From assembly GCF_963921235.1 (NCBI RefSeq), contig NC_086108.1, positions 48,238,001 through 48,302,000 on the forward strand: a DNA stretch of 64,000 nucleotides, written 5' to 3'. Origin of the DNA: Mobula hypostoma (taxonomy: Eukaryota). The translations under genes were made by a program, and so were the position numbers. Under the pieces are notes generated by a model. The model saw nothing but the letters and a program-made list of their open reading frames with translations, did no database searches and was not told the DNA's origin. Below, piece by piece: positions 1 to 37,028 of this stretch; the first letter of the stretch is position 1; every line of letters begins with the position of its first letter.

Positions 1-2
1 GC

Positions 3-38
3 AGTCGACGTTTCAGGCCGAGACCCTTCGTCAGGACT
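3..38 (-). ncRNA. Minimal type-I hammerhead ribozyme motif (intact core) in PLE 3' UTR
   Basis: Minus strand reads AGTC-CTGACGA-AGG GTCTCGG CCT-GAAA-CG-TC-GACT: stem I AGTC/GACT, CUGANGA and GAAA boxes, stem II AGG/CCT, minimal palindromic stem III (ACGT), UC cleavage site. Confidence 0.8.
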
Positions 39-331
39 AACTGAAGGAAGAGTGAGTAAGGGATTTGAAAGCTGGAGGGGGAGGGGGAGATGCAAAATGA
101 TAGGAGAAGACAGGAGGGGGAGGGATAGAGCCGAGAGCTGGACAGGTGATAGGCAAAAGGGGATACGAGAGGATCATGGGACAGGAGGCCTAGGGAGAAA
201 GGCGGGGGGGGGGTGACCCAGAGGATGGGCAAGAGGTATATTCAGAGGGACAGAGGGAGAAAAAGGAGAGTGAGAGAAAGAATGTGTGCATAAAAATGAG
301 TAACAGCTGGGGTACGAGGGGGAGGTGGGGC

Positions 332-3076
332 CTAGCGGAAGTTAGAAAAGTCAATGTTCATGCCATCAGGTTGGAGGCTACCCAGACGGAATATAAGGTG
401 TTGTTCCTCCAACCTGAGTGTGGCTTCATCTTTACAGTAGAGGAGGCCGTGGATAGACATGTCAGAATGGGAATGGGATGTGGAATTAAAATGTGTGGCC
501 ACTGGGAGATCCTGCTTTCTCTGGCGGACAGAGCGTAGATGTTCAGCAAAGCGGTCTCCCAGTCTGCGTCGGGTCTCACCAATATATAAAAGGCCACATC
601 GGGAGCACCAGACGCAGTAAATCACCCCAGTCGACTCACAGGTGAAGTGATGCCTCACCTGGAAGGACTGTTTGGGGCCCTGAATGGTGGTAAGGGAGGA
701 AGTGTAAGGGCATGTGTAGCACTTGTTCCGCTTACACGGATAAGTGCCAGGAGGGAGATCAGTGGGGAGGGATGGGGGGGACGAATGGACAAGGGAGTTG
801 TGTAGGGAGCGATCCCTGCGGAATGCAGAGAGAAGGGGGGAGGGAAAGATGTGCTTAGTGGTGGGATCCCGTTGGAGGTGGCGGAAGTTACGGAGAATAA
901 TATGTTGGACCCGGAGGCTGGTGGGGTGGTAGGTGAGGACCAGGGGAACCCTATTCCTAGTGGGGTGGTGGGAGGATGGAGTGAGAGCAGATGTACGTGA
1001 AATGGAGGAGATGCGTTTAAGAGCAGAGTTGATAGTGGAGGAAGGGAAGCCCCTTTCTTTAAAAAATGAAGACATCTCCCTCATCCTAGAATGAAAAGCC
1101 TCATCCTGAGAGCAGATGCGGCGGAGACGGAGGAATTGCGAGAAGGGGATGGCGTTTTTGCAAGAGACAGGGTGAGAAGAGGAATAGTCCAGATAGCTGT
1201 GAGAGTCAGTAGGCTTATAGTAGATATCAGTGGATAAGCTGTCTCCAGAGACAGAGACAGAAAGATCTAGAAAGGGGAGGGAGGTGTCGGAAATAGACCA
1301 GGTAAACTTGAGGGCAGGGTGAAAGTTGGAGGCAAAGTTAATAAAGTCAACGAGTTCTGCATGCGTGCAGGAAGCAGCGCCAATGCAGTCGTCGATATAG
1401 CGAAGGAAAAGTGGGGGACAGATACCAGAATAGGCACGGAACATAGATTGTTCCACAAACCCAACAAAAAGGCAGGCATAGCTAGGACCCATTCGGGTGC
1501 CCATAGCTACACCTTTAGTTTGGAGGAAATGGGAGGAGCAAAAGGAGAAATTATTAAGAGTAAGGACTAATTCCGCTAGACGGAGCAGAGTGGTGGTAGA
1601 GGGGAACTGATTAGGTCTGGAATCCAAAAAGAAGCGTAGAGCTTTGAGACCTTCCTGATGGGGGATAGAAGTATATAAGGACTGGACGTCCATGGTGAAA
1701 ATAAAGCGGTGGGGGCCAGGGAACTTAAAATCATCGAAAAGTTTAAGAGCGTGAGAAGTGTCACGAACATAGGTCGGAAGGGATTGAACAAGGGGTGATA
1801 AAACAGTGTCGAGGTATGCAGAAACGAGTTCGGTGGGGCAGGAGCAAGCTGAGACAATAGGTCGGCCAGGACAGGCAGGTTTGTGGATCTTGGGTAGGAG
1901 GTAGAAACGGGAAGTGCGGGGTGTGGGAACTATAAGGTTGGTAGCAGTGGATGGGAGATCCCCTGAGCGGATAAAGTCGTTGATAGTGTGGGAGACAATG
2001 GCCTGGTGCTCCTTGGTGGGGTCACGATCGAGGGGTAAATAAGAGGAGGTATCCGCGAGTTGTCGCTGTGCCTCGGCAAGGTAGAGGTCAGTACGCCAGA
2101 CTACAACAGCACCCCCTTTATCAGCGGGTTTAATAATAAGGTTAGGATTAGTGCGGAAGGAGTGGAGAGCAGAGCGTTCCGAAGGAGTGAGGTTGGAATG
2201 GGGACAAGGTGCGGTGAAGTCGAGACGGTTGATGTCCCGTCGGCAGCTGGCAATAAAGAGATCCAGAGCAGGCAGAAGACCAGAGCGGAGTGTCCATGAA
2301 GAAGAGGAGGGTTGAAGACGGGAGAAGGGGTCATCGGTGGGGGTGGAAGAGTCCTTGCCGAAGAAGTAGGCTCGGAGACGGAGACGGCGGAAGAAAAGTT
2401 CCGCATCGTGGCGAACACGGAACTCGCTGAGGTGTGGGCGAAGGGGGACAAACGTGAGGCCCTTACTGAGGACAGAGCGTTCTGCCTCCGACAGTTGAAG
2501 GTCGGAGGGGATGGTAAAGACCCGGCACGGATGAGAGCTGGGATCAGAGGGGGGAGGGGGGAGGCTGGGGGTGTCAATGGAGAGGGGAGGGTTGGGGTGA
2601 GAGGAAGATGGAGCCTCTGAGGGCCCAGGAGTTGACGGTGGGATCTGAGGAAGACGGGGTTGCAGAGTGGTGGTGGGGGAAGGGGAGACGGGAGTCACAA
2701 CAGCAGCACATAAAGACCCGGCCTGGAGTTCAAGGCTGGAGTCGCAGTTGGTGGTTGCGTAATCACTTCGAATGTGTCCATGGTCGTTGCTGGAGTCCAG
2801 GTTTTGAATATGTCCTGAGGTGTTGGAGCCGCCGAGATCAATGGTAGGTGCCGCAATTGAAAGTTCATGCCTGCTAGCGTCGGGGCCGGCAGGCTCTGGA
2901 GTCCGTAGATGTAAGATCTTGCGATCTTTGCCTAACATGACAAAGTCAAAAAAACGGCGATTGCAGGCGTGGATCCGACGGAGGATGAAATACTGGGTAG
3001 GACCATTACAGAAGGCGAAGAAAGTGTCCCGAAGGTGTGGAAGGGTCTGGGATAGGGACACCAAGTACCTCCTCAT
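332..3076 (-). CDS. PLE polyprotein: reverse transcriptase + Cys-rich linker + GIY-YIG endonuclease
   Basis: Motifs KPADKGG, YLLPKIHK, GRPIVS, DVQSLYTSIP, QTKGVAMGT, RYIDD, FLD, CKRNKCYTC, VIYC..CSRC..YIGET..R..EH. The frame stays open upstream to 3223 (LRRQLTPVGFRIRF...), so the true N-terminus is truncated at the junction. Confidence 0.95.
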   Translation of the reverse strand: MRRYLVSLSQTLPHLRDTFFAFCNGPTQYFILRRIHACNRRFFDFVMLGKDRKILHLRTPEPAGPDASRHELSIAAPTIDLGGSNTSGHIQNLDSSNDHGHIRSDYATTNCDSSLELQAGSLCAAVVTPVSPSPTTTLQPRLPQIPPSTPGPSEAPSSSHPNPPLSIDTPSLPPPPSDPSSHPCRVFTIPSDLQLSEAERSVLSKGLTFVPLRPHLSEFRVRHDAELFFRRLRLRAYFFGKDSSTPTDDPFSRLQPSSSSWTLRSGLLPALDLFIASCRRDINRLDFTAPCPHSNLTPSERSALHSFRTNPNLIIKPADKGGAVVVWRTDLYLAEAQRQLADTSSYLPLDRDPTKEHQAIVSHTINDFIRSGDLPSTATNLIVPTPRTSRFYLLPKIHKPACPGRPIVSACSCPTELVSAYLDTVLSPLVQSLPTYVRDTSHALKLFDDFKFPGPHRFIFTMDVQSLYTSIPHQEGLKALRFFLDSRPNQFPSTTTLLRLAELVLTLNNFSFCSSHFLQTKGVAMGTRMGPSYACLFVGFVEQSMFRAYSGICPPLFLRYIDDCIGAASCTHAELVDFINFASNFHPALKFTWSISDTSLPFLDLSVSVSGDSLSTDIYYKPTDSHSYLDYSSSHPVSCKNAIPFSQFLRLRRICSQDEAFHSRMREMSSFFKERGFPSSTINSALKRISSISRTSALTPSSHHPTRNRVPLVLTYHPTSLRVQHIILRNFRHLQRDPTTKHIFPSPLLSAFRRDRSLHNSLVHSSPPSLPTDLPPGTYPCKRNKCYTCPYTSSLTTIQGPKQSFQVRHHFTCESTGVIYCVWCSRCGLLYIGETRRRLGDRFAEHLRSVRQRKQDLPVATHFNSTSHSHSDMSIHGLLYCKDEATLRLEEQHLIFRLGSLQPDGMNIDFSNFR

Positions 3077-3233
3077 GGCGGAGAGCGTCGCCTTCAGAGC
3101 TTGACGGGAGAAGCGGCGAGAGGCAGAGTCAATAAAATGTGAGTACCTGGGATCCTCAGAAGGTCCAAATTGAGAGGCTTGGAAACGAATCCTAAAGCCA
3201 ACTGGAGTAAGTTGGCGACGGAGGCGCCTACCA

Positions 3234-5726
3234 TTGATCTCGGCGGCTCCAACACCTCAGGACATATTCAACGACCATGGACACATTCGAAGTGATTACG
3301 CAACCACCAACTGCGACTCCAGCCTTGAACTCCAGGCCGGGTCTTTATGTGCTGCTGTTGTGACTCCCGTCTCCCCTTCCCCCACCACCACTCTGCAACC
3401 CCGTCTTCCTCAGATCCCACCGTCAACTCCTGGGCCCTCAGAGGCTCCATCTTCCTCTCACCCCAACCCTCCCCTCTCCATTGACACCCCCAGCCTCCCC
3501 CCTCCCCCCTCTGATCCCAGCTCTCATCCGTGCCGGGTCTTTACCATCCCCTCCGACCTTCAACTGTCGGAGGCAGAACGCTCTGTCCTCAGTAAGGGCC
3601 TCACGTTTGTCCCCCTTCGCCCACACCTCAGCGAGTTCCGTGTTCGCCACGATGCGGAACTTTTCTTCCGCCGTCTCCGTCTCCGAGCCTACTTCTTCGG
3701 CAAGGACTCTTCCACCCCCACCGATGACCCCTTCTCCCGTCTTCAACCCTCCTCTTCTTCATGGACACTCCGCTCTGGTCTTCTGCCTGCTCTGGATCTC
3801 TTTATTGCCAGCTGCCGACGGGACATCAACCGTCTCGACTTCACCGCACCTTGTCCCCATTCCAACCTCACTCCTTCGGAACGCTCTGCTCTCCACTCCT
3901 TCCGCACTAATCCTAACCTTATTATTAAACCCGCTGATAAAGGGGGTGCTGTTGTAGTCTGGCGTACTGACCTCTACCTTGCCGAGGCACAGCGACAACT
4001 CGCGGATACCTCCTCTTATTTACCCCTCGATCGTGACCCCACCAAGGAGCACCAGGCCATTGTCTCCCACACTATCAACGACTTTATCCGCTCAGGGGAT
4101 CTCCCATCCACTGCTACCAACCTTATAGTTCCCACACCCCGCACTTCCCGTTTCTACCTCCTACCCAAGATCCACAAACCTGCCTGTCCTGGCCGACCTA
4201 TTGTCTCAGCTTGCTCCTGCCCCACCGAACTCGTTTCTGCATACCTCGACACTGTTTTATCACCCCTTGTTCAATCCCTTCCGACCTATGTTCGTGACAC
4301 TTCTCACGCTTTTAAACTTTTCAATGATTTTAAGTTCCCTGGCCCCCACTGCTTTATTTTCACCATGGATGTCCAGTCCTTATATACTTCCATCCCCCAT
4401 CAGGAAGGTCTCAAAGCTCTACGCTTCCTTTTGGATTCCAGACCTAATCAGTTCCCCTCTACCACCACTCTGCTCCGTCTAGCGGAATTAGTCCTTACTC
4501 TTAATAATTTCTCCTTTTGCTCCTCCCATTTCTTCCAAACTAAAGGTGTAGCCATGGGCACCCGAATGGGTCCTAGCTATGCCTGCCTTTTTGTTGGGTT
4601 TGTGGAACAATCTATGTTCCGTGCCTATTCTGGTATCTGTCCCCCACTTTTCCTTCGCTATATCGACGACTGCATTGGCGCTGCTTCCTGCATGCATGCA
4701 GAACTCGTTGACTTTATTAACTTTGCCTCCAACTTTCACCCTGCCCTCAAGTTTACCTGGTCTATTTCCGACACCTCCCTCCCCTTTCTAGATCTTTCTG
4801 TCTCTGTCTCTGGAGACAGCTTATCCACTGATATCTACTATAAGCCTACTGACTCTCACAGCTATCTGGACTATTCCTCTTCTCACCCTGTCCCTTGCAA
4901 AAACGCCATCCCCTTCTCGCAATTCCTCCGTCTCCGCCGCATCTGCTCTCAGGATGAGGCTTTTCATTCTAGGACGAGGGAGATGTCTTCATTTTTTAAA
5001 GAAAGGGGCTTCCCTTCCTCCACTATCAACTCTGCTCTTAAACGCATCTCCTCCATTTCACGTACATCTGCTCTCACTCCATCCTCCCACCACCCCACTA
5101 GGAATAGGGTTCCCCTGGTCCTCACCTACCACCCCACCAGCCTCCGGGTCCAACATATTATTCTCCGTAACTTCCGCCACCTCCAACGGGATCCCACCAC
5201 TAAGCACATCTTTCCCTCCCCCCTTCTCTCTGCATTCCGCAGGGATCGCTCCCTACACAACTCCCTTGTCCATTCGTCCCCCCCATCCCTCCCCACTGAT
5301 CTCCCTCCTGGCACTTATCCGTGTAAGCGGAACAAGTGCTACACATGCCCTTACACTTCCTCCCTTACCACCATTCAGGGCCCCAAACAGTCCTTCCAGG
5401 TGAGGCATCACTTCACCTGTGAGTCGACTGGGGTGATATACTGCGTCCGGTGCTCCCGATGTGGCCTTTTATATATTGGTGAGACCCGACGCAGACTGGG
5501 AGACCGCTTTGCTGAACATCTACGCTCTGTCCGCCAGAGAAAGCAGGATCTCCCAGTGGCCACACATTTTAATTCCACATCCCATTCCCATTCTGACATG
5601 TCTATCCATGGCCTCCTCTACTGTAAAGATGAAGCCACACTCAGGTTGGAGGAACAACACCTTATATTCCGTCTTGGTAGCCTCCAACCTGATGGCATGA
5701 ACATTGACTTCTCTAACTTCCGCTAG
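3234..5726 (+). CDS. PLE polyprotein (RT + GIY-YIG), N-terminally truncated second copy
   Basis: Same motifs as 332..3076, with 9 amino-acid differences, all in the C-terminal part. The first ~11 residues are out of frame because of the 17-bp deletion, and the TTG start is probably not real. Confidence 0.9.
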   Translation: MISAAPTPQDIFNDHGHIRSDYATTNCDSSLELQAGSLCAAVVTPVSPSPTTTLQPRLPQIPPSTPGPSEAPSSSHPNPPLSIDTPSLPPPPSDPSSHPCRVFTIPSDLQLSEAERSVLSKGLTFVPLRPHLSEFRVRHDAELFFRRLRLRAYFFGKDSSTPTDDPFSRLQPSSSSWTLRSGLLPALDLFIASCRRDINRLDFTAPCPHSNLTPSERSALHSFRTNPNLIIKPADKGGAVVVWRTDLYLAEAQRQLADTSSYLPLDRDPTKEHQAIVSHTINDFIRSGDLPSTATNLIVPTPRTSRFYLLPKIHKPACPGRPIVSACSCPTELVSAYLDTVLSPLVQSLPTYVRDTSHAFKLFNDFKFPGPHCFIFTMDVQSLYTSIPHQEGLKALRFLLDSRPNQFPSTTTLLRLAELVLTLNNFSFCSSHFFQTKGVAMGTRMGPSYACLFVGFVEQSMFRAYSGICPPLFLRYIDDCIGAASCMHAELVDFINFASNFHPALKFTWSISDTSLPFLDLSVSVSGDSLSTDIYYKPTDSHSYLDYSSSHPVPCKNAIPFSQFLRLRRICSQDEAFHSRTREMSSFFKERGFPSSTINSALKRISSISRTSALTPSSHHPTRNRVPLVLTYHPTSLRVQHIILRNFRHLQRDPTTKHIFPSPLLSAFRRDRSLHNSLVHSSPPSLPTDLPPGTYPCKRNKCYTCPYTSSLTTIQGPKQSFQVRHHFTCESTGVIYCVRCSRCGLLYIGETRRRLGDRFAEHLRSVRQRKQDLPVATHFNSTSHSHSDMSIHGLLYCKDEATLRLEEQHLIFRLGSLQPDGMNIDFSNFR

Positions 5727-6020
5727 GCCCCACCTCCCCCTCGTACCCCAGCTGTTACTCATTTTTATGCACACATTCTTTCTCTCACTCTCCTTTTTCT
5801 CCCTCTGTCCCTCTGAATATACCTCTTGCCCATCCTCTGGGTCACCCTCCCCCCCGTCTTTCTCCCTAGGCCTCCTGTCCCATGATCCTCTCGTATCCCC
5901 TTTTGCCTATCACCTGTCCAGCTCTCGGCTCTATCCCTCCCCCTCCTGTCTTCTCCTATCATTTTGCATCTCCCCCTCCCCCTCCAGCTTTCAAATCCCT
6001 TACTCACTCTTCCTTCAGTT

Positions 6021-6056
6021 AGTCCTGACAAAGGGTCTCGGCCTGAAACGTCGACT
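6021..6056 (+). ncRNA. Hammerhead ribozyme motif, right-arm copy with G8>A core mutation
   Basis: AGTC-CTGACAA-AGGGTCTCGGCCT-GAAA-CGTC-GACT; differs from the left copy only at 6030 (CpG transition). Confidence 0.7.
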
Positions 6057-7100
6057 GCACCTCTTCCTACAGATGCTGCTTGGCCTGCTGCGTTCACCAG
6101 CAACTTTGATGTATGTTGCTTGATCCTCATGTCTAAACCTCTTTGTTCAATAATAAAACAGGACCCCTAAGTTCCTGGCAATCTGAGGAATCAGCAGTTT
6201 TGTTTTGAATTTTTTTTTATTAGCATTCCTCCATTTAGATATTTGCCTAGAAGAAACCCATCCTCCATGGCAGGAAATCCCCATTCACTCTCGGATTAGC
6301 TTTATGACATTTACATGTGGCACAGAGCAGATATTCCAATTTCCTCTGCCAGTGGCCAAGAGCAGAACATATCTGAGGCTTTGAGCAACGGAAATCTTTC
6401 CCCTGCTTTTTAATACTTCTGCCAAGAGAATAGACTAGATCGTAGTTACATTCTGATCCATAATCAAGGATTATGATGAGATGATCACAATAAAGGTAAA
6501 GGCTACTGTTCGATATGCATCAGCTGTCCGAACAAATTTGGTATGAATGTTATCTAGATCACTCAATTACATTTTTGAAGGGGATTTTACTGTTTCATTC
6601 AGATGCAAAATAGACAGAATATCCTCTTTTTTTTCCAGCATTGATGTTATGTAAAAATTGGGCTGAAACTACTTTTGCTGGTAGTTTTGTAAAGAAGTGT
6701 CAGCATGCAACTCTTTTGCGATCTGCACTCTGTAGGCGATACCATGGTGTAGCGTGGATGTCTGAGACCAGCTGAAGGTGGGCATCATTGCATACGCACC
6801 CCGCTCTGCCACTGGACTGAACACTGAATATCTACACCAGTCGTGTTTCACTCTGGGGTTAAGTCAGTTTTGCTATTCCCTTAAAATGTTGGGGATGTGA
6901 AAGGGTTAATGCCAAGTGTTCGTTATCTAATTTACTTAATAATGCCACTTTCAATGAATTAATATCACTTAAATGTATTTATAAAAAATTTATTACTGAC
7001 TTTAAAAAAAACCTTTAAGCTTATTTTAATTCTTTCAAGCTGTTTTTAAATGTCTTAGAACATCAGTGACATTTAAAAACTATTCAATGGCTTTTCAGAA

Positions 7101-7742
7101 GTTCAAAGTAAATTTATTATCAAAGTACATGTATGTCACTATATATAACCCTGAGATTCATTTTCTTGCGGGCATACTCAGTAAGTCCGTAATGGAATAA
7201 TAACCATAATGGAATCAATGAAAGACCATTTGTCTTTTGTTCAACCAGTGTGAAAAAGACAACAAACTGCAAGTACAAATAGAAAGAAATAATAAATAAA
7301 TAAACAATAAATATTGAGAACATGAGATGAAGAGTCCTTGAAAATAAGTGCATAGGTTGTGGGAACATTTCAGTGATGGAGCAAGTGAAGTTATCCCCTT
7401 TGGTTCAAGAACCTGATGGTTGAGTGATAATAATTGTTCCTGAATCTGCTGGTGTGAGTCCGGAGGCTCCTGTACCTTCTTCCTGATGGTGTGAGTCCGG
7501 AGGCTCCTGTACCTTCTTCCTGATGGCATCAGTGAAAAGAGAGCGTGTCCTGCGTGGTGGGAGTTCTTGATGATAGATGCTGCTTTCCTGCACATCTATC
7601 AATGTTTCATATAGGTATGCTCAGGGGTGGGGAGAGCTTTACCTGTGATTGACTGAGCCGTATCCGCTACGTTTTGTAGGATTTTCTGTTCAAAGGCATT
7701 GGTGTTTCCATACCAGGTTGTGATGCAGCCAGTCAATATATT
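7101..7742 (-). mobile_element. Rex1/Babar-type LINE, 3' fragment
   Basis: ORF 7215..7595 reads CRKAASIIKNSHHAGHALFSLMPSGRRYRSLRTHT, a typical Rex C-terminus. 3' UTR is similar to 39700-40010. Confidence 0.8.
7450..7526. repeat. 37-bp perfect tandem duplication
   Basis: tggtgtgagtccggaggctcctgtaccttcttcctga occurs twice (7450-7486, 7487-7523), followed by tgg. Confidence 0.95.
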
Positions 7743-7847
7743 CTTGTGATATAGAAGGAGGCCTTTCTACCCATCCAAACAATGTTAGCTCAGAGTGAAC
7801 TCTCAAGGACGGTATTTTCCCCACAGGGTTAGCTGGAACCTCTTCCT

Positions 7848-8346
7848 TCCAGAGAAGGTTCACAAGAATGACTCCGGGGAAAAAAGGGGTTAACATATGA
7901 GGCGCATTTGATAGCTCTAGGCCTGTACTTTCTGGAGTTTATAGTTATGATGGGAGATCTCATTGAAACTTATCAAATATTGAATGGCCTGAATAGATTG
8001 GATCTGGGAAGGGTGTTTTCAATAAGAGTGAGTCTATGACTAAATGGCAAAGCCTCAGACGAGAGGGACATCCATTTAGAACAGAGATGGGGAGGAATTT
8101 CTTTAGCCAGAGGGTAGTGAATCTGTGGAATACATTACCACAGACTGCTGTGGAGGATAAATCACTGAGTATATTTAAAGCAGAGGTTGATAGGTTGTTG
8201 ATTAGCCAGGGCATCAAAGGTTACGGAGAGAAGGAGGAAGAATGGGATTGAGAGGGATAATAAATCAGCCATGATTGAATGGTAGAGCAGACTCGATGGT
8301 CTGAATGGCCTAATTCTGCTCCTATGTCTTACAGTCTCATGGTCTC
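7848..8346 (+). mobile_element. CR1-type LINE, 3' fragment
   Basis: GHPFRTEMGRNFFSQRVVNLWNTLP motif and the CR1 tail ...aatggcctaattctgctcctatgtctt. Confidence 0.85.
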
Positions 8347-36493: not shown

Positions 36494-37028
36494 ACAAGAG
36501 AAAATCTGTCGATGCTGGACATCCGAGAAACACACACAAAATGCTGGAGGAACTCAGCAGGCCAGGCAGCATCTATGGAAAAGAGTACAGTTGACGTTTT
36601 GGGCAGAGACCTTTCATCAGGACTGGAAAAAAAAGAGATTAAGAAGGTGGAGCGATGGGAGGAAGAAAGACAAGGTGACGGGTAAAACAGGAGGGTGGGG
36701 TGGAGAGGGGGTGCAGGGAATTTGATTGGTGAAAGAGATACAGGGCTGAAAAAGGGAATCTGATAGGAGAGCCCTGTATCTCTATCTCCAGCCCTGTTTC
36801 TCTTTCATCAATCAACCTTCCAGCTCCTTACTTCATCCCTTCCCCACCCACTTCCTGGTTTCACCTGTCACCTTGTCTTTCTTCCTCTCCTCCCCCCATC
36901 TTCTTACTTCGACTCCTCGTTTTTTTTCTCCAGACTTGCCGAAGGGTCTCGGCCCGAAACGTCGACTGTACTCTTTTCCATAGATGCTGCCCGGCCTGCT
37001 GAGTTCCTCCAGCATTTTGTGTGTGTTG
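36494..37028. mobile_element. Palindromic non-autonomous PLE insertion (two inverted 3' UTRs) with 13-bp TSD
   Basis: TSD ggtagaaattcaa at 36481-36493 and 37029-37041. Arms are homologous to the PLE 3' UTR at 5900-6120. Decayed hammerheads at 36589-36624 (-) and 36932-36967 (+). Confidence 0.88.

What the first reader, a model, noticed from the sequence alone, without database searches (positions are those of the whole stretch)
1..6123. ~6-kb head-to-head palindrome of two coding-intact Penelope-like elements: candidate two-ended (double TPRT) insertion
Seen: 1..2852 is the reverse complement of 3223..6058. The ~370-bp spacer is simply extra 5' sequence of the left copy. Both 3' ends face outward, both copies are 5'-truncated, and both keep uninterrupted RT and GIY-YIG domains. 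Known: PLEs often carry inverted terminal segments. Inference: this is one event in which both strands of a staggered target cut primed reverse transcription at element 3' ends and the two cDNAs were joined. Arms of almost full ORF length are an extreme case, and the structure differs from L1 twin priming, where the 3' end occurs only once.
Basis: partly seen in the sequence, partly recalled or inferred. Interest (0 to 1): 0.85.

Follow-up and report, generated by a model that had tools for sequence, protein, structure and literature searches.

The report
Head-to-head Penelope-like element insertion
Two truncated copies of a Penelope-like jumping gene lie head to head and went in as a single insertion, which is the usual way this class of element inserts, so it is a very clean example and not a new kind of structure.

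Summary
Window 1-2852 is the reverse complement of 3223-6058 (98.7% identity). The 370-bp spacer is extra 5' sequence of the left copy.

The left copy runs 93 bp beyond position 1, and ATCCTCATGTCTAA (13-14 bp) flanks the whole 6,215-bp pair. Contigs of a related organism carry the empty site with that sequence once. So this is one insertion, not an assembly artefact and not two hits.

The architecture is common in this genome:
- 10 of 20 sampled 3' ends sit in such pairs.
- 13 of 14 pairs have a 10-16 bp TSD.
- 13 of 14 pairs carry the ~30-nt "tail" on one arm only.

Partner arms share rare variants. In 7 of 13 TSD-flanked pairs each arm holds sequence the other lacks. This argues against fold-back copying and for priming at both target strands.

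The layout is a published Penelope-like element (PLE) hallmark (PMC8557442, PMC3846280), and a PLE protein extends both strands in vitro (PMC11167929). This scan had already noted a PLE fold-back insertion elsewhere in this genome. Both arms lack the ORF start.

Verdict: a new member of a known kind, of moderate interest.

The parts
1..3225 (-). Left arm, the 'tail' arm: a 5'-truncated PLE copy covering family-unit positions 198-3515(+1). It continues 93 bp left of the window, to L035 609.
332..3256 (-). Open frame of the left arm (974 aa stop-to-stop) holding RT and C-terminal GIY-YIG. The native ATG and about 78 N-terminal codons are missing, and the last 11 codons read into the right arm.
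2853..3222 (-). The 'spacer': 5' sequence (unit 198-570) present only in the left arm.
3223..3225 (.). Head-to-head junction. These 3 nt can be read as the end of either arm (microhomology).
   Evidence: L001 1409-4725 minus strand and 4723-4771 plus strand overlap by 3 nt
3223..6123 (+). Right arm, the arm without a tail: a 5'-truncated PLE copy covering unit 571-3487/3488, with a 17-nt deletion after window 3271.
3174..5726 (+). Open frame of the right arm (850 aa stop-to-stop) with RT and GIY-YIG. About 203 N-terminal codons are missing.
6123..6136 (+). Right copy of the target-site duplication ATCCTCATGTCTAA. The first A is ambiguous with the element end. The left copy lies outside the window at L035 595-608.
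   Evidence: present once in the empty site of organism B
6025..6055 (+). Minimal-hammerhead-like core (CUGANGA..GAAA followed by the palindrome GUCGAC) in the right arm. It carries a G-to-A change at unit 3395, so it reads CTGACAA. The left arm (window 4-34, minus strand) keeps the G.
   Evidence: no Rfam match

Best explanation
This is one retrotransposition event of a young, very abundant endonuclease-containing Penelope-like element (unit 3,515 bp; RT plus C-terminal GIY-YIG). The element's endonuclease made staggered nicks 13-14 bp apart. The 3'-OH of each target strand then primed reverse transcription near the 3' end of element RNA. One started just beyond the ~30-nt 'tail' (left arm). 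The other started just before it (right arm). Each cDNA stopped short of the RNA 5' end, at unit 198 and unit 571. Their 3' ends were joined head to head over 3 nt of microhomology, and each strand was completed on the other cDNA. Filling the stagger gave the duplication that flanks the pair.

Shown: a single insertion (TSD plus empty site), the same source lineage for both arms, and the recurrence of the pattern. Inferred: priming at both strands, the order of steps and the joining. After insertion the arms each gained private substitutions. The inner 1 kb was probably homogenised by arm-to-arm gene conversion.
For: Single event:
- The 13-14 bp duplication lies exactly at both outer ends, with no internal copy.
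- In organism B, contigs from three runs of one sample join L035 594 directly to 6824. That is the flanks with the sequence once, at roughly 1.5% flank divergence.
- In the source sample, contigs bridge each flank into an outward-facing element 3' end, by 18 and 26 nt.

Same source for both arms:
- Each arm is the other's closest relative: 99.30% arm to arm, against best 99.09% and 98.91% among 14 other copies.
- Four variants are shared by both arms and absent from all 17-19 other copies.
- 16 of the 20 differences are private to one arm.

Family pattern:
- 10 of 20 sampled 3'-end loci are head-to-head pairs.
- 12 of 13 pairs, plus L004/L034, have a 10-16 bp TSD around the whole pair.
- Exactly one arm has the tail in 12 of 13 pairs, plus L004/L034. 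The chance under independent ends is 0.0017.
- Junctions show a 1-3 nt overlap or a short filler.
- Partner arms share non-majority variants at 0.80% of sites, against 0.22% for random pairs. Fisher's combined test on partner ranks gives p = 7e-5 and 1e-5.
- In 7 of 13 TSD-flanked pairs the arm without a tail reaches further 5' than the tail arm, so neither arm can be a copy of the other.

Literature:
Against: - No read or experiment shows priming on both strands at this locus.
- Here the tail arm is longer at both ends, so this locus taken alone also fits a fold-back copy.
[quoted passage not shown] The strict one-tail-per-pair rule is therefore not explained by the published data and needs an extra assumption.
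- The arms differ at 20 sites, all outside the inner 1,042 columns (p = 1e-4). This needs gene conversion, or a more complex origin, to explain.
- Only Logan contigs could be laid, not long reads, so the central junction has no independent read support.
- The 20-locus sample is the top-scoring part of a limited first look (178 candidates). It is not a random census.
Confidence: 0.7

Rival explanations
1. Fold-back (self-priming) of a single cDNA. One strand primes reverse transcription, the cDNA's 3' end snaps back on itself at a short complementarity, and it copies itself outward. This is the self-priming idea raised for PLE inverted repeats in PMC3846280.
For: At this locus the left arm contains everything the right arm has, at both the 5' and the 3' end. 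The junction has 3 nt of microhomology. Both arms share private variants. PMC3846280 (passages seen) argues for self-priming from palindromes at inverted junctions.
Against: In 7 of 13 TSD-flanked pairs of the same family the arm without a tail extends further 5' while the tail arm extends further 3'. Neither arm can then be templated by the other. A fold-back copy should run to the start of the first cDNA or into the flank, giving an inverted flank duplication. Instead it stops about 30 nt short and a direct TSD is present.
Confidence: 0.15
2. Two independent insertions: a second copy landed exactly at the 5' end of an earlier truncated copy.
For: The family has thousands of copies (8,591 first-look candidates), so chance adjacency happens. 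One pair, L031, has no TSD and may be such a case.
Against: One duplication flanks the whole pair and no second duplication lies inside it. The empty site in organism B lacks both arms precisely. The arms are each other's closest relatives, with 4 exclusive shared variants.
Confidence: 0.02
3. Assembly fold-back artefact: a chimeric or palindromic read error.
For: Palindromes are a known long-read artefact. The centre of the structure has no independent read support here (laid contigs only).
Against: The structure lies 48 Mb inside a 118-Mb contig. Both flanks are contiguous in organism B, and the TSD lies exactly at the boundaries. Source-sample contigs enter an outward-facing 3' end from each flank. 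The arms differ at 20 sites and by a 17-nt deletion. The same architecture with TSDs recurs at 13 other loci.
Confidence: 0.02
4. A later rearrangement (inverted duplication or recombination) of a single insertion, or a copy of a palindrome formed elsewhere.
For: The inner 1,042 columns of the arms are identical, which shows that the arms have interacted after insertion.
Against: An inverted duplication would not recreate a direct TSD at the new outer end. The junction sequence (window 3143-3302) matched in full only at this locus: the other 39 scored hits, of 1,974 candidates, stop at query position 91.
Confidence: 0.03

Closest known systems
EN+ Penelope-like element insertions with an adjoining inverted 5'-truncated copy, one TSD around the whole unit and a one-sided 30-40 bp tail. 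Described in Craig et al. 2021 (PMC8557442, which cites Evgen'ev and Arkhipova 2005 and Arkhipova 2006) and, for Pen2a_Av of Adineta vaga, in PMC3846280.
   Same: Head-to-head arrangement; both 3' ends facing outward; a single TSD flanking the unit (9-10 bp in A. vaga, 13-14 bp here); the tail on one end only; frequent 5' truncation; partial tandems forming pseudo-LTRs in sister copies; an ORF that starts in the pseudo-LTR.
   Different: In the published typical case the inverted part is a short pseudo-LTR next to a full-length copy. Here both arms are long (3.3 and 2.9 kb), both are 5'-truncated, and there is no direct pseudo-LTR. No canonical hammerhead is detected by Rfam; only a minimal core motif is present.
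PAc (Poseidon of Anolis carolinensis) in vitro integration, PMC11167929
   Same: The protein cleaves and extends both target strands. RT starts at two adjacent internal sites whose interval is the tail. Here the arm ends fall at two sites about 28-33 nt apart: unit 3476-3488, and unit 3515 plus 0-13.
   Different: In vitro, no difference in start site between the strands was seen. Here the two sites are used one each in 13 of 14 pairs. The element here has a CX4CxxC linker motif, which PMC8557442 ascribes to Neptune/Nematis and not to Penelope/Poseidon, so it is probably from another PLE clade. Nothing was tested biochemically here.
L1 twin priming
   Same: The second target strand also primes reverse transcription. 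The result is an inverted junction with microhomology and one TSD around the whole insertion.
   Different: In twin priming the second primer anneals internally on the same RNA. The two segments are then non-overlapping parts of one copy, and the 3' end occurs once. Here both arms start at the 3' region and overlap by about 2.9 kb.

Membership tests
EN+ Penelope-like elements (C-terminal GIY-YIG) | A single ORF with a reverse transcriptase followed by a C-terminal GIY-YIG endonuclease | tested here: met
   Both arms hit RVT_1 (E 5e-5 and 3e-5) and then GIY-YIG (E 1e-3 and 8e-4) in that order, though below Pfam's curated cut-offs. The ESM Atlas nearest named clusters (score 0.98) are animal proteins carrying RVT_1, GIY-YIG, HTH_animal and DUF8422.
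EN+ Penelope-like elements (C-terminal GIY-YIG) | The PLE-specific DKG motif N-terminal to the RT core (named in PMC8557442) | tested here: met
   'KPADKGGAVVVW' is present in both translated arms. The motif name comes from passages of PMC8557442. This was found by inspection, not by alignment to reference PLEs.
EN+ Penelope-like elements (C-terminal GIY-YIG) | Zn-finger motifs of the EN region: CCHH, plus the CX2-5CxxC linker in Neptune/Nematis | tested here: inconclusive
   'CKRNKCYTC' (CX4CxxC) lies just upstream of the GIY-YIG region in both arms. This points to a Neptune/Nematis-type linker as described in PMC8557442. Cys and His residues that could form CCHH are present but were not aligned to references.
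EN+ Penelope-like elements (C-terminal GIY-YIG) | Partial tandems forming pseudo-LTRs | tested here: met
   In 7 of the 9 other full-length-hit loci (L002, L004, L006-L010) a 5'-truncated copy ending at unit 3515 abuts unit position 1 of the next copy. The window's own pair has no direct pseudo-LTR.
EN+ Penelope-like elements (C-terminal GIY-YIG) | An optional 30-40 bp tail at only one end of the insertion | tested here: met
   The left arm ends at unit 3515(+1) and the right arm at 3487/3488. One tail per pair is seen in 12 of 13 pairs, plus L004/L034.
EN+ Penelope-like elements (C-terminal GIY-YIG) | A hammerhead ribozyme motif in the pseudo-LTR | tested here: inconclusive
   Rfam found no hammerhead at E<=1 in window 1-8000 or at E<=5 in L002. 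A CUGANGA-N13-GAAA core followed by GUCGAC occurs at the same unit position in both element 3' regions of L002 (3 matches in the locus against 0.63 expected by chance). Activity was not tested.
L1-type twin priming | The inverted and direct segments are non-overlapping parts of one RNA, and the 3' end is present once | tested here: not met
   Both arms contain the 3' region and overlap over unit 571-3487.
Two-ended TPRT as shown for PAc in vitro | Both target strands are nicked and extended, and RT starts at two adjacent internal sites | not testable with these tools
   The sequence is consistent with it: staggered-nick TSD, two classes of arm ends about 30 nt apart, and tail arms that run 12-13 nt into the next unit in L012 and L028, so the template extended beyond the start site. 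Strand extension itself cannot be observed from sequence.

The most novel reading that the evidence does not exclude
The near-strict rule of one tail-bearing end and one tail-less end per pair, together with arms that share private variants, may mean that both cDNAs of a pair are copied from the same RNA molecule by one coordinated (possibly dimeric) RNP. One target strand would be placed at the upstream RT start site and the other at the downstream site, with the second synthesis displacing the first. Inverted pairs would then be the direct in vivo footprint of a symmetric, two-ended integration mechanism peculiar to PLEs. This genome, together with its sister organism that carries empty sites, would be a natural data set for working that mechanism out.
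Probability: 0.3. Interest if true: 0.6.

Novelty: new member of a known kind. Interest (0 to 1): 0.35.

Why it matters
How Penelope-like elements integrate is still described as undefined (PMC8557442), and only one in vitro study exists (PMC11167929). This locus does not reveal a new structure. It is an unusually clean case: long arms, an exact TSD and an empty site in a related organism. The family around it is young (about 1-2% divergence) and very abundant. It gives countable regularities that discriminate between models: one tail per pair, TSDs of 10-16 bp, 1-3 nt junction microhomology, arms from one source, and either arm able to be the longer. Practically, 6-kb near-perfect palindromes of this kind are hazards for assembly and repeat annotation, and they are potential sources of hairpin RNA.

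Tried and rejected
- Rfam scans of window 1-8000 and of a full-length copy with its pseudo-LTR (L002) found no hammerhead. Only a pattern search found a minimal core.
- An RNA fold of the 3' 136 nt of the unit showed no unusual stability (z = -0.38). I therefore make no claim for a stem-loop at the RT start sites.
- A PDB sequence search gave nothing useful (one hit at E = 0.26).
- I tested whether arm differences generally avoid the palindrome centre. They do not: 72 inner-half against 85 outer-half differences over 12 pairs. The identical inner 1 kb at this locus is therefore local and not a rule.
- I looked for TSDs at 10 solo copies. Only 5 showed a 5-13 nt match (L020, L029, L005, L003, L016); the rest showed none within the range searched. 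I saw no inverted fragments at their 5' junctions, but this was by eye only.
- Laying Logan contigs cannot show spanning reads, and parts without listed contigs say nothing. The many 'joints' in the source run between the two arms come from other family copies and were not used.
- Two paper searches found no paper in the held library that explicitly proposes two-ended TPRT as the origin of PLE inverted pairs, beyond the in vitro statement in PMC11167929. Arkhipova 2006 and Evgen'ev and Arkhipova 2005 were not available to read. The supplements of PMC11167929 (Figs S1-S2) were not opened.
The sample is therefore 20 loci plus 4 picked pairs.
Full report
OBSERVATION. The inverted repeat is real. 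The repeat finder gives three collinear inverted segments covering 1-2852 and 3223-6058 at 98-99% complementarity. BLAST joins them into one alignment of 2853 columns at 98.70% identity, with 19 mismatches and 2 gap openings. The 370 bp between the arms (2853-3222) is contiguous 5' sequence of the left copy. Under the standard code each arm is open from its truncation point to the stop: 974 aa on the minus strand (332..3256) and 850 aa on the plus strand (3174..5726). Each arm hits RVT_1 and then GIY-YIG, weakly and below Pfam's curated cut-offs. The nearest named ESM Atlas clusters are animal RT/GIY-YIG proteins. The translation shows the DKG motif and a CX4CxxC linker motif, both of which PMC8557442 lists for PLEs.

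THE FAMILY. The window is G000:C50:48238001-48302000 in a 3.48-Gb assembly. The left arm found 8,591 first-look candidates, and the 40 that were scored are 98-99% identical.
- From nine other full-length-hit loci the repeating unit is 3,515 bp. In 7 of the 9, a 5'-truncated copy ending at unit 3515 abuts position 1 of the next copy. This is the pseudo-LTR arrangement.
- In natural context the ORF is 1,042 aa and starts at an ATG at the very end of the upstream pseudo-LTR (L002 1263..4391).
- The window's arms cover unit 198-3515 (left) and unit 571-3487/3488 (right). Both therefore lack the native start and about 78 and 203 codons respectively. 'Coding-intact' is true only for RT and EN.

THE PREDICTED DUPLICATION AND THE EMPTY SITE. 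The window does not start at a contig end, so I read the left flank (L001, L035).
- The left arm continues 93 bp beyond position 1. It ends with about 28 nt that the right arm lacks, and it is preceded by ATCCTCATGTCTAA.
- The same 13-14 nt follow the right arm at window 6123/6124-6136. The insert between the two copies is 6,215 bp.
- Laying Logan contigs of public runs on L035 gave the empty site. In three runs of one sample of a related 'organism B', a single contig aligns to L035 1-594 and continues without a break at 6824. That is the two flanks with the sequence once. The flanks differ by 8 letters in 594 and by 9-11 letters in 367-674.
- In the source sample, contigs run from each flank into an outward-facing element end, by 18 and 26 nt. 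No long reads could be laid, so the centre of the palindrome has no independent read support.
- The junction sequence (window 3143-3302) matched in full only at this locus among the 40 scored hits of 1,974 candidates.
- Two independent insertions, an assembly fold-back and a later inverted duplication are therefore all very unlikely.

HOW COMMON IT IS. I searched with the 364-nt 3' end (178 first-look candidates, 40 scored). I fetched the 20 loci holding the 21 best non-self hits.
- 10 of the 20 loci are head-to-head pairs (L012, L018, L019, L021-L024, L026, L028, L030).
- 8 are solo 5'-truncated copies, 5 with the tail and 3 without.
- 2 are tandem only.
- I added three pairs that searches had already shown as adjacent inverted hits (L031-L033), and also L004 with L034.
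- A 10-16 bp direct duplication flanks the whole pair in 12 of 13 pairs, and in L004/L034 as well (14 nt). L031 is the exception.
- Long arms recur: C76 has arms of 3.3 and 2.8 kb, and C5 has a full-length copy next to a 2.5-kb arm. This locus is at the long end of the range but is not unique.

REGULARITIES THAT BEAR ON MECHANISM.
(a) One tail per pair. One arm ends at unit 3515 plus 0-13 nt. The other ends at unit 3476-3488, or about 3430 once. This holds in 12 of 13 pairs and in L004/L034. L031 is again the exception. With independent ends the chance is at most 0.0017.
(b) Junctions overlap by 1-3 nt or carry 3-35 nt of filler. Here the overlap is 3 nt.
(c) Partner arms are related.
- Pooled over 11 pairs, they share non-majority variants at 0.80% of sites, against 0.22% for 1,183 random pairs. 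They differ at 1.15% of sites, against 2.0%.
- Fisher's combined test on partner rank gives p = 7e-5 and 1e-5.
- For this locus the arms are 99.30% identical. The best of 14 other copies reaches 99.09% and 98.91%. Four variants are exclusive to the two arms, and 16 of the 20 differences are private to one arm.
(d) Among the 13 TSD-flanked pairs, the arm without a tail reaches further 5' in 7, the tail arm in 5 (including this locus), and 1 is ambiguous. In those 7, each arm has sequence that its partner lacks. One arm therefore cannot be a fold-back copy of the other, and both must have been templated independently.
(e) In L012 and L028 the tail arm runs 12-13 nt into the start of the next unit. 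The template RNA therefore extended past the start site, which is internal initiation on a read-through or tandem transcript.

MOST LIKELY MECHANISM. A single event in which both 3'-OH ends of a staggered cut primed reverse transcription near the element's 3' region. The two cDNAs were then joined at microhomology and the stagger was filled in.
- Shown: the single event, the common source of the arms, and the family-wide regularities.
- Inferred: priming at both strands, the order of steps and the joining.
- The inference agrees with the only biochemical study. Purified PAc cleaves and extends both strands, and it initiates at two adjacent internal sites whose interval is the tail (PMC11167929, main text read; supplements not opened).
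- That paper saw no strand difference in start site, so the one-tail rule is not explained by it. A speculative account is that both cDNAs use one RNA, with one start site each.

WHAT IS KNOWN. PMC8557442 (passages) states that PLE insertions are often partial tandems. [quoted passage not shown] PMC3846280 (passages) describes Pen2a_Av with an inverted pseudo-LTR, a 31-bp tail on one inverted end and a 9-bp TSD around the whole insert. It discusses self-priming as the origin of head-to-head repeats. The architecture is therefore a published hallmark, while the mechanism is still called undefined. Notes from this scan already recorded a small PLE fold-back insertion, and minimal hammerheads in PLE ends, elsewhere in this genome.

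AFTER INSERTION. All 20 arm differences lie at unit 1676 or beyond. None lies in the inner 1,042 columns (p = 1e-4), and that inner stretch holds the four exclusive shared variants. This is best read as arm-to-arm gene conversion. Other pairs show no inner-outer trend (72 against 85 differences). The right arm has a 17-nt deletion flanked by CAA, 49 nt from the junction, and a G-to-A change in its minimal hammerhead-like core.

VERDICT. Two-ended priming is favoured but not proven. The structure is a new, very clean member of a known kind. Interest is moderate, mainly as material for settling how PLEs integrate.

Noticed in passing
window 1749-2789 and 3269-4310 (unit 634-1675 of both arms): The inner 1,042 aligned columns of the palindrome have no differences, yet they hold four variants found in no other sampled copy. 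All 20 differences lie further out (p = 1e-4). This looks like arm-to-arm gene conversion near the centre.
   Followed up: partly
window 3271/3272, against left arm about 2787-2803: A 17-nt deletion in the right arm only, flanked by a CAA repeat and 49 nt from the head-to-head junction. It puts the first 49 nt of that arm out of frame.
   Followed up: partly
window 4-34 (minus strand) and 6025-6055 (plus strand): A minimal-hammerhead-like core (CUGANGA..GAAA plus the palindrome GUCGAC) about 65-95 nt upstream of the RT start sites. It is intact in the left arm and carries a G-to-A change in the right arm. Rfam does not detect it.
   Followed up: partly
L002 1263-4391: The full-length 1,042-aa ORF starts at an ATG that sits at the tail-less RT start site at the end of the upstream pseudo-LTR. 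A complete ORF therefore exists only in tandem copies.
   Followed up: yes
L012 1461-1473 and L028 1462-1473: Two tail arms extend 12-13 nt past the tail into the first bases of the next unit. The template RNA therefore read through a tandem junction, and reverse transcription began internally.
   Followed up: partly
L031 (G000:C76:15847800-15854500): A long head-to-head pair (arms of 3.3 and 2.8 kb) with no detectable TSD, a partial tail on the second arm, and arms that are not each other's closest relatives. It is possibly two hits or a rearranged locus.
   Followed up: partly
L013-L017, L020, L027, L029, L003, L005: Solo 5'-truncated copies show weaker target duplications than pairs: 5 of 10 have a 5-13 nt match and the rest have none. 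Single-ended insertions may be resolved differently.
   Followed up: partly
window 36937-37028: A 95-bp fragment 83% identical to the 3' end of the element. It is an older relative of the same family and the only other match in the window.
   Followed up: no
L002 669-826: A long hairpin in the flank of another copy scores as mir-7131 (39.5 bits, below the gathering score of 74). It is probably an unrelated inverted-repeat element.
   Followed up: no
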